Positions 12,482 through 13,458 of a stretch of DNA of 64,000 nucleotides are shown here, one piece after another. The stretch is from Vairimorpha necatrix (Eukaryota), in NCBI GenBank assembly GCA_036630325.1, contig CP142730.1, forward strand, positions 186,001 through 250,000, in the 5' to 3' direction. Made by a program: the position numbers and the translations under genes. Each line of letters starts with the position of its first letter. Within the stretch, counting starts at the first letter, position 1. Below the pieces are notes generated by a model, which saw nothing but the letters and a program-made list of their open reading frames with translations, did no database searches and had not been told where the DNA came from.

Positions 12482-12879
12482 ACCAAAAACTCCACCAACC
12501 AGAAAAACATCAATAATTGCGTTTAAACGCCAGCTTACCTTGACGGCCTTGCTTGTAGGAGAAAACTTTGTTCCCGTAAGGAACAGGTCCTTAGTCATCT
12601 CTGACTACATATTTCGCGGACCTGACGAAAACACAACTCCTGGTTCAATACACCATTTAAGAACACAACTCAGTTCAGCGGAACAATACAGCTTCAGGAT
12701 CATGCCCAATTTCTCCCAGGTTAAAAATATGAAGAATTACTCGAAAGTTAACGGTGTCCTTCTCACCAGCAATGGGTCTCCCACCCCTAGAGTATAGCTG
12801 ACCCTACTTACCAACCAGCAGCAAAAGGTTGGTAAGACTTAGAGATCTGCACCTAGTTAAAAAACATCAGTCCCACCCT

Positions 12880-13392
12880 AAAAAAAATAAAAATAAAAAT
12901 AAAAATAAAAATGTTTATTGTAAAAAAAGACAGAATCAGCAAAACGAAGAAAAGCCACCAAGCCACCAAAAACTCCACCAACCAGAAAAACATCAATAAT
13001 TGCGATTACACGCCAGCATACCTCAACGGCCTCGCTTGTAGGAGAAAAATTTGTTCCCGTAGGTAACAGATCCTTAGTCATCTCTGACTACATATTTCGC
13101 GGACCTGACGAAAACACAACGCCTGGTTCAATACACCATTTAAGAACACGACTCAGTTCAGCGGAACAATACAGCTTCAGTATCATGCCCAACCTCTCCC
13201 AGGTTAAAAATATGAAGAATTACTCGAAAGTTAACGGTGTTCTTCTCACCAGCAATGGGTCTCCCACCCCTAGAGTATAGCTGACCCTACTTACCAACCA
13301 GCAGCCGAAGGTTGGTAAGACTTAGAGATCTGCACCTAGTTAAAAAACATCGGTCCCACCCTCCGCGACGTGGACGCTCTCTTATGGAGGGT
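12880..13392 (-). mobile_element. 513-bp non-autonomous retroelement (SIDE/SINE-like) derived from the LINE ends
   Basis: Flanked by the identical 12-bp direct repeat CAGTCCCACCCT (12868-12879, 13393-13404). It starts at the ribozyme P1, ends with AATAAA + (TTTTTA)n/T-tract, and its body is nearly identical to 12481-12879. Confidence 0.85.
13316..13392 (-). ncRNA. HDV-like self-cleaving ribozyme (predicted)
   Basis: Minus strand reads P1 ACCCUCC / AUAAGAGA (J1/2+P2) / P3 GCG / L3 UCCACGU / P3' CGC / P1' GGAGGGU / GG (P1.1) / P4 ~30 nt / J4/2 CUAAG / P2' UCUUA. L3 and J4/2 fit the HDV-family consensus UYCHCG(N)Y and C(N)RA. Confidence 0.8.
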
Positions 13393-13458
13393 CAGTCCCA
13401 CCCTCCACATCAAGTACGCTCTCAATACAACACAACACCTACTGGACATACAAAAAAA

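What the first reader, a model, noticed from the sequence alone, without database searches (positions are those of the whole stretch)
12868..13404. 513-bp SIDE-like element starts at the predicted ribozyme cut and is inserted, with a 12-bp TSD, into its parent LINE's ribozyme
Seen: AGGGTGGGACTG (minus strand) flanks 13392-12880 on both sides. The insert begins at ribozyme position +1 and ends with AATAAA plus a T-rich tail. Removing it rejoins a degenerate ribozyme (13423-13393, 24/31 identical to the intact copy) to its P4-J4/2-P2' half at 12867-12834. The match between insert boundary and cleavage site is independent support for ribozyme activity. The TSD can be read as 13 bp including the +1 A, which could explain A instead of the usual G at +1. 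Inference: a non-autonomous parasite of the LINE, analogous to R2/R1 SIDEs, whose target sequence is part of the ribozyme itself.
Basis: partly seen in the sequence, partly recalled or inferred. Interest (0 to 1): 0.88.

Follow-up and report, generated by a model that had tools for sequence, protein, structure and literature searches.

The report
Short ribozyme-headed retroelement beside microsporidian rDNA
A 513-base non-coding offshoot of a jumping gene (a LINE), headed by a probable self-cutting RNA, sits 46 bases after the large ribosomal RNA gene of a microsporidian parasite, inside the front end of an older copy of its parent: a known kind of element in a new host group and a new place.

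Summary
AGGGTGGGACTG flanks a 513-nt insert (13392-12880, minus strand) exactly. The insert is a LINE derivative. Positions 31-428 are 95% identical to the 5' UTR of the LINE just downstream, and the last 85 nt match that LINE's 3' end with a variable T-rich tail. It has no coding similarity.

Its first 69 nt fit an HDV-like ribozyme plan. Three or four other 5' junctions in public contigs start at the predicted cut, within 1 nt.

New context: this is a microsporidian rDNA unit, and the insert starts about 46 nt after the LSU 3' end.

- The upstream "degenerate half" is an older layer (11 of 17 identical). It is shared 16 of 17 with another rDNA-flank variant, so the interrupted ribozyme was already dead.
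- Other junction flanks differ, so a ribozyme-specific target is not shown.
- The +1 A belongs to the element and is not borrowed from a 13-bp duplication.

Limits: no independent data cover the window's 5' junction, no empty site was seen, and no cleavage or expression data exist.

Verdict: a SIDE-like element, a new variant of a known kind. Interest is moderate.

The parts
13438..15860 (-). LSU rRNA gene. SSU lies at 17221-15975. The LSU 3' end is near 13438.
   Evidence: Rfam LSU_rRNA_eukarya 1356.8 bits and SSU_rRNA_microsporidia 1057 bits. On 12600-13700 the archaeal LSU model ends, at its last position 2987, at 13438.
13407..13423 (-). Old fossil of ribozyme positions 12-28 (decayed P2 5' strand, P3 and L3).
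   Evidence: 11 of 17 identical to the intact copy. 16 of 17 shared with the X2 contig that spans the LSU end.
13393..13404 (-). Upstream copy of the 12-nt duplication (ribozyme positions 31-42). The GG at 13406-13405 completes positions 29-30.
   Evidence: Exact match. 13 of 14 to the insert's own positions 29-42.
12880..13392 (-). 513-nt SIDE-like non-autonomous element.
   Evidence: No LINE coding similarity. The antisense 118-aa frame has no Pfam family.
13324..13392 (-). Predicted HDV-like ribozyme, positions 1-69. P1 is 13392-13386 with 13364-13358. P2 is 13382-13378 with 13328-13324. P3 is 13377-13375 with 13367-13365. L3 is 13374-13368. P1.1 is 13357-13356 with 13373-13372. The candidate catalytic C is 13332.
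   Evidence: Pairs read. The strict descriptor gave this as the only hit in the window and 0 hits in 25 shuffled windows. The centroid fold shows P1 and P3. The Rfam CPEB3 model scores only 14.3 bits.
12965..13362 (-). SIDE positions 31-428, a copy of the LINE 5' UTR.
   Evidence: 95.2% over 398 nt to 12879-12482.
12880..12964 (-). SIDE positions 429-513: the LINE's 3' terminal 85 nt, with AATAAA at 12919-12914 and a T-rich tail at 12911-12880.
   Evidence: Alignment to 6297-6213 and to 6060-5974. TRF period 6, 5 copies.
12868..12879 (-). Downstream copy of the 12-nt duplication, which is also LINE positions 31-42.
   Evidence: A contig of run X1 holds the same 30-nt tail abutting AGGGTGGGAC (loose end at the paralogous place 13362).
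6213..12879 (-). Resident L1-like LINE with broken reading frames. 5' UTR 12879-12482; ORF1 ATG 12481; ORF2 similarity 10149-6755; 3' UTR block 6538-6284, which repeats the 5' UTR block 12730-12482; tail to 6213.
   Evidence: Pfam RVT_1 8.5e-33, Exo_endo_phos 1.3e-05, zf-RVT 0.0011. Best PDB match is human LINE-1 ORF2p at 6.1e-28. Coding is split into at least 6 stop-to-stop pieces. 5'/3' block identity is 80.5%. tblastn.
5974..6212 (-). Older, 5'-truncated copy of the short element (positions 241-501 plus tail), directly behind the LINE's tail.
   Evidence: 82.1% to the SIDE. Its block is 84.9% to the LINE 5' UTR against 75.3% to the LINE 3' UTR block.
3712..3894 (-). Much older 3'-end fragment of the same family.
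   Evidence: 74.5% over 188 nt to SIDE positions 333-512.

Best explanation
This is a non-autonomous, internally deleted derivative of an L1-like (APE plus RT) LINE of a Nosema/Vairimorpha-clade microsporidian.

Proposed mechanism, with each step marked:
1. Inferred: its RNA is made by read-through from the LSU rRNA gene 46 nt upstream.
2. Inferred from the fold and from 5' ends, not assayed: an HDV-like ribozyme occupying the first 69 nt cuts the RNA free exactly at its first base.
3. Inferred by analogy with R1/R2 SIDEs: the LINE's proteins recognise the shared 3' end.
4. Anatomy shown, mechanism inferred: target-primed reverse transcription placed this copy between positions 42 and 43 of the 5' end of a resident LINE, with staggered nicks 12 nt apart that gave the AGGGTGGGACTG duplication.

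The resident LINE's own ribozyme was already dead. It was an in-register chimera of an older fossil (positions 12-28) and younger LINE sequence (position 29 onward).

The short form probably arose by deletion between, or next to, the 250-nt block that the LINE carries in both its 5' and 3' UTR.
For: Anatomy:
- 12 of 12 flank repeat.
- Insert = LINE 5' UTR (379 of 398 identical) plus the LINE's last 85 nt.
- Tail lengths differ among the 3 copies: about 32, 20 and 21 nt.
- Both flank copies carry T at position 41 where the insert has C.

The short form is a family, not a local deletion. A second truncated copy has a 5'UTR-type block. Contigs identical to the SIDE occur in run X2 (records 9, 12 and 14, 0 differences), and related contigs occur in X1 and X3.

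Ribozyme:
- P1 has 7 of 7 pairs, P3 3 of 3, P1.1 is GG with CC, and P2 has 5 of 5 pairs.
- A C lies in J4/2, and L3 reads UCCACGU with the U..G named as conserved in PMC3774820 (passage).
- The strict descriptor gave 1 hit in the window and 0 in 25 shuffled windows.
- The centroid fold gives P1 and P3.

5' ends at the cut (one contig each):
- X2, downstream of the LSU end: ..GGTACCCT|ACCCTCC.
- X2, nested in an element's own 5' UTR: ..CTGTTACC|ACCCTCC.
- X1: ..AATCTCTG|CCCTCC.
- Plus the window itself.

3' junction: an X1 contig holds the same 30-nt tail abutting AGGGTGGGAC.

Context: the LSU 3' end is at about 13438. The LINE has APE and RT domains.
Against: - No independent data hold the window's 5' junction. 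X1 depth is 0 over 13400-13429, and X2 covers it only with a variant contig that has 7 substitutions and 2 inserted letters in the 14 nt before the insert.
- No empty-site form was seen. The test had no power, because 12830-12919 had no cover in any of the 4 runs.
- No Rfam ribozyme family reaches its threshold: CPEB3 scores 14.3 bits against 35, E 1.4.
- The pseudoknot-free fold is no more stable than shuffles: z -0.08, with 73 of 200 shuffles folding as well, and the MFE structure is a different fold.
- A looser descriptor hits shuffled windows about 1.5 times each, 29 hits in 20 shuffles. The strict descriptor was written after seeing the sequence.
- The cleavage-site pair is A-U, not the usual G.U (the usual form is recalled, not from a call). 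P4 has only about 3 pairs.
- The nick site (CCCT/CCAC on the primer strand) has no complementarity to a U-rich tail. Other tandem junctions of the family sit behind T runs.
- Each contig junction rests on one contig.
Confidence: 0.6

Rival explanations
1. Reversed order with a chance register. The short element came first, landing behind an old ribozyme fossil that happens to end at position 42. The LINE later inserted into the short element's T-rich tail and was 5'-truncated at position 31. On this reading the 12-nt 'duplication' is two paralogous ribozyme pieces, not a target-site duplication.
For: Tail followed by a 5'-truncated copy is a common junction in this family. Examples are the LINE tail followed by the copy at 6212-5974, and three X1 contigs with a T run before position 173 (loose end at 13220). 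An X2 contig shows a full 5' end at the same place (within 2 nt) behind a fossil without AGGGTGGGACTG.
Against: - It needs truncation of a 6.7-kb LINE within a few nt of the point that gives a TSD-like overlap.
- It does not explain why both flank copies share T41 against the insert's C41.
- It does not explain why positions 29-42 upstream are 13 of 14 'young' while positions 12-28 are 11 of 17.
Confidence: 0.12
2. A DNA-level event. Unequal recombination, slippage or gene conversion among neighbouring homeologous ribozyme and UTR copies in the rDNA flank produced the arrangement, without a fresh retrotransposition at this exact point.
For: The stretch before the insert is an in-register chimera of old and young ribozyme sequence. 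That speaks for a homology-driven process at this locus. rDNA units of this clade are dispersed and variable (PMC10759460 passages; PMC3566094 abstract). X1 carries minority LSU-end variants: 13528 deletion and 13534 A>G at about 27-29% of depth.
Against: Recombination does not by itself put a T-rich tail next to position 31, or give a complete 5'-to-tail unit bounded by a 12-nt direct repeat. The internal copy of the repeat (ACCG) differs from both flank copies.
Confidence: 0.1
3. The 5' end is set by a transcription start or by chance, and the ribozyme-like fold is not active. The element is an ordinary internally deleted LINE with an internal promoter.
For: There is no Rfam hit at threshold, no thermodynamic signal, A-U at the cut, and a weak P4. 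No RNA data exist.
Against: All core pairings of the HDV plan and an L3 of the conserved type occur together exactly at the element's first base. The ribozyme part is the best-kept part between the SIDE and the LINE, with 1 difference in positions 31-80.
Confidence: 0.1
4. Assembly artefact: repeats were mis-joined or collapsed in the rDNA flank.
For: The window's 5' junction is in none of the 4 runs laid. The two best runs hold only 0.52 and 0.51 of the sampled words.
Against: The 3' junction, with an identical 30-nt tail, is in an X1 contig. The two 398-nt copies differ at 19 places, which is not what a collapse gives. X1 may be the source sample, so this is weak independence.
Confidence: 0.05

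Closest known systems
[quoted passage not shown]
   Same: A short internally deleted element: a 5' HDV-like ribozyme from the autonomous partner joined to the partner's 3' end. It lies next to or in an rRNA gene, so it can ride a co-transcript. The R1-type SIDEs have a fixed-length flank duplication (14 bp there, 12 here).
   Different: The partner here is an L1-like APE LINE, not R2 (which has a restriction-like endonuclease). The site is outside the rRNA gene, about 46 nt after the LSU 3' end, and inside another element. The whole 5' UTR is kept. The tail is T-rich. The host is a microsporidian. No sequence-specific target is shown.
L1Tc/NARTc and ingi/RIME of trypanosomatids, with the Pr77 HDV-like ribozyme (PMC4035085, abstract only; RIME noted in PMC3414825 Discussion)
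   Same: An APE-type LINE with an HDV-like ribozyme at its RNA 5' end, and a non-autonomous partner made by internal deletion that keeps the ribozyme.
   Different: Those elements are dispersed and not tied to the rRNA gene end. No sequence relationship was tested here.
R2 5' ribozyme and its rRNA co-transcript (Eickbush, Burke and Eickbush 2013, PMC3774820; abstract and sections 16 and 18 read)
   Same: The HDV-like plan: P1 of 6-7 bp, P2 of at least 5 bp, a variable P4, a catalytic C. Processing is from an rRNA co-transcript. 5' junctions are shaped by annealing of the cDNA to homologous upstream sequence, which could explain the in-register old/young chimera here.
   Different: In R2 the upstream homology is 28S sequence. 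Here it is the fossil of an earlier element. Cleavage here is predicted at the element's first base.
Mammalian CPEB3 ribozyme (Rfam RF00622)
   Same: It is the only Rfam family with any score. The P3-L3-P3' stretch aligns nearly letter for letter.
   Different: 14.3 bits against a gathering score of 35. P1, P2 and P4 are unrelated in sequence. This is not a member.

Membership tests
HDV-like self-cleaving ribozyme | Nested double pseudoknot: P1 of about 7 bp starting at the cut, P3 of 3 bp, P1.1 of 2 bp between L3 and the bases after P1', and P2 closing behind P4. | tested here: met
   All pairs are present at 13392-13324. The strict descriptor gave 1 hit in the window and 0 in 25 shuffled windows. 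The descriptor was written after seeing the sequence.
HDV-like self-cleaving ribozyme | Catalytic C in J4/2, and a conserved U..G in L3. | tested here: met
   C at 13332 lies between P4 and P2'. L3 is UCCACGU. The conserved L3 G and U are named in PMC3774820. This is judged by position only.
HDV-like self-cleaving ribozyme | G.U wobble at the cleavage-site pair (recalled as usual, not universal). | tested here: not met
   A1-U35 is a Watson-Crick pair. A is also at +1 in two X2 junctions.
HDV-like self-cleaving ribozyme | Match to a curated covariance model. | tested here: not met
   No ribozyme family reached gathering score. CPEB3 scored 14.3 bits, E 1.4. HDV-like ribozymes are known for low sequence conservation (PMC3774820 section 16).
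HDV-like self-cleaving ribozyme | Self-cleavage giving a 5'-OH at +1. | not testable with these tools
   Only indirect support: 5' ends of 3 other copies lie at or 1 nt from +1 (one contig each).
SIDE (short internally deleted element) | 5' ribozyme and 3' end of an autonomous non-LTR element, with the coding part deleted. | tested here: met
SIDE (short internally deleted element) | Propagated as a family by TPRT: several copies, variable tails or 5' ends, flank duplication. | tested here: inconclusive
   There are two copies of the short form in the window, plus identical or related contigs in X1-X3 and a still shorter joined form in X1. A flank duplication is seen for one copy only. No genome was available.
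SIDE (short internally deleted element) | Relies on co-transcription with the rRNA gene. | not testable with these tools
   Position only: +1 lies 46 nt after the LSU 3' end, with no T run between. An X2 contig shows a second LSU-end variant followed by the same 5' end.
R2 / R1 rDNA-specific elements | Insertion at the fixed R2 or R1 site inside the 28S gene. R2 has a restriction-like endonuclease. | tested here: not met
   The site lies beyond the LSU 3' end. The partner has an APE-type endonuclease.
L1-like APE LINE (the autonomous partner) | APE endonuclease, then RT, then a C-terminal zinc-binding region in ORF2, with an upstream ORF1. | tested here: met
   Exo_endo_phos 25.5 bits (cut-off 24.5) and RVT_1 114 bits. 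zf-RVT scored 20 bits, below its cut-off of 27.5. Best solved relatives are human LINE-1 ORF2p. The clade was not placed by a tree.

The most novel reading that the evidence does not exclude
The few bases after the LSU gene may be a co-transcription slot for which this LINE family competes across the dispersed rDNA loci of Nosema/Vairimorpha. Newcomers land in the resident's ribozyme and take over Pol I read-through. That would leave the age-ordered stack seen here: an intact short element next to the LSU, then copies at 95%, 82-85% and 74% identity further away.

Units whose first ribozyme is dead would yield uncleaved rRNA-LINE co-transcripts. Reverse transcription of those could have carried whole rDNA units to new chromosomal sites. 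This would be a retrotransposon origin for the dispersed rDNA of this clade.
Probability: 0.08. Interest if true: 0.85.

Novelty: new variant of a known kind. Interest (0 to 1): 0.55.

Why it matters
LINEs that free their RNA with an HDV-like ribozyme, and short deleted parasites of them, are known from insects (R2, R1) and trypanosomes. SIDEs were called rare by their discoverers (PMC3414825 Discussion).

I found no paper linking microsporidia with such ribozymes. Two searches gave 0 and 2 irrelevant papers. A 2024 review table of transposons in rDNA lists only MITEs for microsporidia (passages).

If the reading holds, an L1-like element has independently taken up the R2 life style, riding the rRNA transcript. 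It does so from just outside the gene, so the rRNA stays intact.

It would also give a handle on why rDNA flanks differ among the dispersed rDNA loci of this clade. It offers a short natural ribozyme with A at +1 to assay.

The nested insertion itself is one event and an anecdote. Its value is as a dated marker of recent activity.

Tried and rejected
- No whole genome is held, so the proposed genome-wide table of copies could not be made.
- Two exact-pattern scans of metagenome contigs found 0 loci: the 25-nt ribozyme core and a 28-nt conserved 3'-end stretch.
- A viral-contig scan with the V. ceranae LINE protein found no relative.
- Empty-site test by laid contigs: the bins 12830-12919 had depth 0 in all 4 runs, and X1 skipped 12830-12921 as a repeat. 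This gives no verdict.
- X5 covered only 13448-13482 (the LSU end) and then ran on unlike. X3 covered only 12927-13133.
- The first, loose ribozyme descriptor was not specific. It gave 2 hits in the window, one of them an AT-rich false one at 56545-56677, and 29 hits in 20 shuffles.
- The pseudoknot-free fold gave no signal.
- Test of co-mobilised rDNA plus LINE: there was no shared word of 10 nt or more between the 25 nt after either tail and 4.3 kb upstream of the SSU; only 9-mers were found.
- The flank after 5973 shows no significant likeness to the LINE 5' end (score 37, shuffle 95th percentile 42). It shows a borderline likeness to the element's 3' end at about 5763-5701 (score 47, shuffle maximum 50).
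The last 85 nt and the tail of the insert are not in the downstream copy.
- Supplementary files of PMC10759460, which may list the rDNA loci, were not seen.

Full report
**What is there**

All coordinates are on the minus strand. The 12-mer AGGGTGGGACTG lies exactly at 13404-13393 and at 12879-12868. A one-mismatch copy lies at 13362-13351. These are the only 3 matches at up to 1 mismatch in 64 kb, and 0 of 100 shuffles gave 3.

Between the two exact copies lie 513 nt (13392-12880). This stretch starts ACCCTCC. It ends with AATAAA and a T-rich tail, (TTTTTA)5 plus a T run.

Rfam places a microsporidian SSU at 17221-15975 and an LSU from 15860. Searched alone, the LSU 3' part ends with the model's last position at 13438. 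The insert's first base is therefore about 46 nt after the LSU 3' end.

Downstream, from 12879 to 6213, lies one LINE.
- Its ORF2 has an APE-type endonuclease and RT domains. The zf-RVT match is below its cut-off.
- Its best solved relatives are human LINE-1 ORF2p, at 6.1e-28, ahead of R2 at 3.4e-19.
- Its closest proteins are a Vairimorpha necatrix 'reverse transcriptase' (81% identity) and a V. ceranae LINE cluster (53-55%).
- The coding part is split into at least 6 stop-to-stop pieces, so this copy is dead.

The organism is therefore a Nosema/Vairimorpha-clade microsporidian. That is an inference from these matches. In V. necatrix the rDNA loci are reported as 18-20 per pseudo-haplotype and dispersed, not in arrays (PMC10759460, passages).

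**What the insert is made of**

- Positions 31-428 match the LINE's 5' UTR (12879-12482) with 19 substitutions in 398 and no gap. The match stops one base before the ATG that opens ORF1.
- Positions 429-513 match the LINE's last 85 nt, with 1 substitution and a 2-nt gap before the tail. The tails of the three copies differ in length.
- The insert has no similarity to LINE coding sequence. Its only long frame is antisense and has no Pfam family.

The LINE carries a block of about 250 nt twice: in its 5' UTR (12730-12482) and in its 3' UTR (6538-6284), 80.5% alike. An X2 contig shows the same LINE-specific sequence running into that block (loose end at 13212). The repeat is therefore a family feature, and a deletion at or between the two blocks gives the short form.

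Directly behind the LINE's tail lies a second, 5'-truncated copy (6212-5974). Its block is of the 5'UTR type, 84.9% against 75.3%, so it is an older copy of the short form. An even older 3' fragment lies at 3894-3712, at 74.5%.

So the short form is a family. It fits the SIDE plan of Eickbush and Eickbush (PMC3414825; abstract and Discussion).

**The ribozyme**

Read on the sequence, positions 1-69 give the following:
- P1: 7 of 7 pairs (ACCCUCC with GGAGGGU).
- P3: 3 of 3 pairs (GCG with CGC).
- L3: UCCACGU.
- P1.1: GG with the CC of L3.
- P2: 5 of 5 pairs (AGAGA with UCUCU).
- A C in the joiner before P2'.
- P4: a weak stem of about 3 pairs.

This is within the range described for R2 ribozymes (PMC3774820 section 16).

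Evidence on specificity is mixed.
- A strict descriptor found this as the only hit in the window and found none in 25 shuffled windows. I wrote it after seeing the sequence.
- A looser descriptor was not specific, with 29 hits in 20 shuffles.
- No Rfam ribozyme reaches threshold. CPEB3 gets 14.3 bits through the near-identical P3-L3 stretch.
- The pseudoknot-free fold is not unusually stable (z -0.08), though its centroid shows P1 and P3.
- Only one such core is present in the window.

**Evidence from public runs (contigs only, one contig per junction)**

1. A 429-nt X2 contig runs from the LSU (13695) through the LSU end into the ribozyme (to 13267). It differs from the window at 12 places, plus 3 inserted letters, between 13431 and 13392. 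The 17 nt at 13423-13407 are shared 16 of 17. The 14 nt that form the window's upstream repeat differ at 7 places plus 2 insertions. Yet the contig goes on with ACCCTCC at the same place, within 2 nt.
2. A second X2 contig joins the element's own 5' UTR (..CTGTTACC, position 331) to ACCCTCC. The target's next base there is T.
3. An X1 contig reads ..AATCTCTG|CCCTCC. Its flank looks like ribozyme positions 59-69.
4. An X1 contig holds a 30-nt tail identical to the window's, abutting AGGGTGGGAC. This is the window's 3' junction.
5. X1 also has further nested joints (positions 232 and 415 followed by positions 2-3). It has a shorter joined form too (13322 to 12974), which would leave little more than the ribozyme plus the 3' end.

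Against my reading:
- X1 has depth 0 over 13400-13429, and X2 covers that stretch only with the variant contig. The window's own 5' junction therefore has no independent witness.
- 12830-12919 had no cover in any run, so an empty site could not have been seen.
- X1 and X2 hold only 0.52 and 0.51 of the sampled words.

**How I read it**

The two flank copies share T at position 41 where the insert's own copy has C. A complete ribozyme-to-tail unit lies between them.

Three points change.

First, the upstream 'half ribozyme' is stepped in identity: 1 of 11, 11 of 17, then 13 of 14, against 379 of 398 downstream. Its old part is shared with the X2 variant. The resident LINE's 5' end was therefore an in-register chimera of a fossil and younger sequence, without a P1 5' strand. 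Its ribozyme was dead before the insertion. Homology-guided 5' joining, as proposed for R2 (PMC3774820 abstract), or gene conversion could make such a chimera. This is inference.

Second, the flanks of the other 5' junctions are unlike each other. No ribozyme-specific target is shown. What recurs is the place just after the LSU, seen in the window and in X2.

Third, A at +1 is element-encoded, as two X2 junctions show. The 13-bp reading explains nothing.

The coincidence of element start and predicted cut, now seen behind four different flanks, is the best available support for cleavage. It is not an assay.

**Rivals**

- Reversed order of insertion with a chance register.
- A DNA-level recombination.
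- An inactive ribozyme, with the 5' end set by a transcription start.
- Mis-assembly.

These are set out with odds in their own section.

**Comparison and novelty**

The element works like an R2 or R2/R1 SIDE, and like NARTc or RIME beside L1Tc or ingi (PMC4035085, abstract). It is not an R2 or R1 family member: the partner has an APE endonuclease, and the site is outside the rRNA gene.

I found no paper joining microsporidia and HDV-like or self-cleaving ribozymes in retrotransposons. A 2024 review table lists only N. bombycis MITEs in microsporidian rDNA (passages). These searches cover open-access papers and bioRxiv only.

I rate it a new variant of a known kind, of moderate interest.

The bold reading is a contested co-transcription slot, with retrotransposon-borne spread of rDNA units. 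It is not excluded, but here it has only the age-ordered stack of copies for it, and a negative search for bracketing repeats against it.

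Noticed in passing
window 2207-2881 (+): A 224-aa ORF with a strong piggyBac-type transposase match (DDE_Tnp_1_7, 5.2e-49), covering only profile positions 50-250 of 349. It is probably a fragment.
   Followed up: partly
window 25459-26043 (+): A 194-aa ORF with RT_RNaseH and Integrase_H2C2 domains. This is a piece of a Ty3/gypsy-type LTR retrotransposon.
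   Followed up: partly
window 23016-23207, 30774-30971, 45120-45251: Three arrays of 22-nt tandem repeats. Two of them (30.8 kb and 45.1 kb) are related to each other, and inverted copies lie at 43989-44088.
   Followed up: no
window 35886-36947, 38182-39063, 57894-58952: A repeat family of about 1 kb with three copies (93-97% between the first and third, 63-71% to the second). It ends in T/C-rich runs followed by a long G run, and inverted partners lie near 37929-38009. It is a different mobile element, not studied.
   Followed up: no
window 46460-46759 and 48206-48505: A 300-nt (or longer) direct repeat at 100% identity, 1746 nt apart. These could be LTRs of a young element.
   Followed up: no
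window 13322 joined to 12974 in a contig of run X1: A still shorter form of the element, which would keep about the ribozyme (positions 1-71) and the last 95 nt or so. It rests on one contig with 29 letters on the shorter side.
   Followed up: no
window about 5763-5701 (-): A borderline likeness to the element's 3' end (score 47, shuffle maximum 50). It may be one more decayed 3' fragment in the same orientation. Copies appear older the further they lie from the LSU.
   Followed up: partly
window 13528 and 13534 (LSU 3' part): Run X1 carries a 2-nt deletion and an A>G change as minority variants, at about 27-29% of summed depth. The same variants are on the X2 contig. The rDNA units of this organism are not homogeneous near the LSU end.
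   Followed up: no
window 21562-22953 (-): A 463-aa ORF upstream of the rDNA unit with no Pfam family.
   Followed up: no
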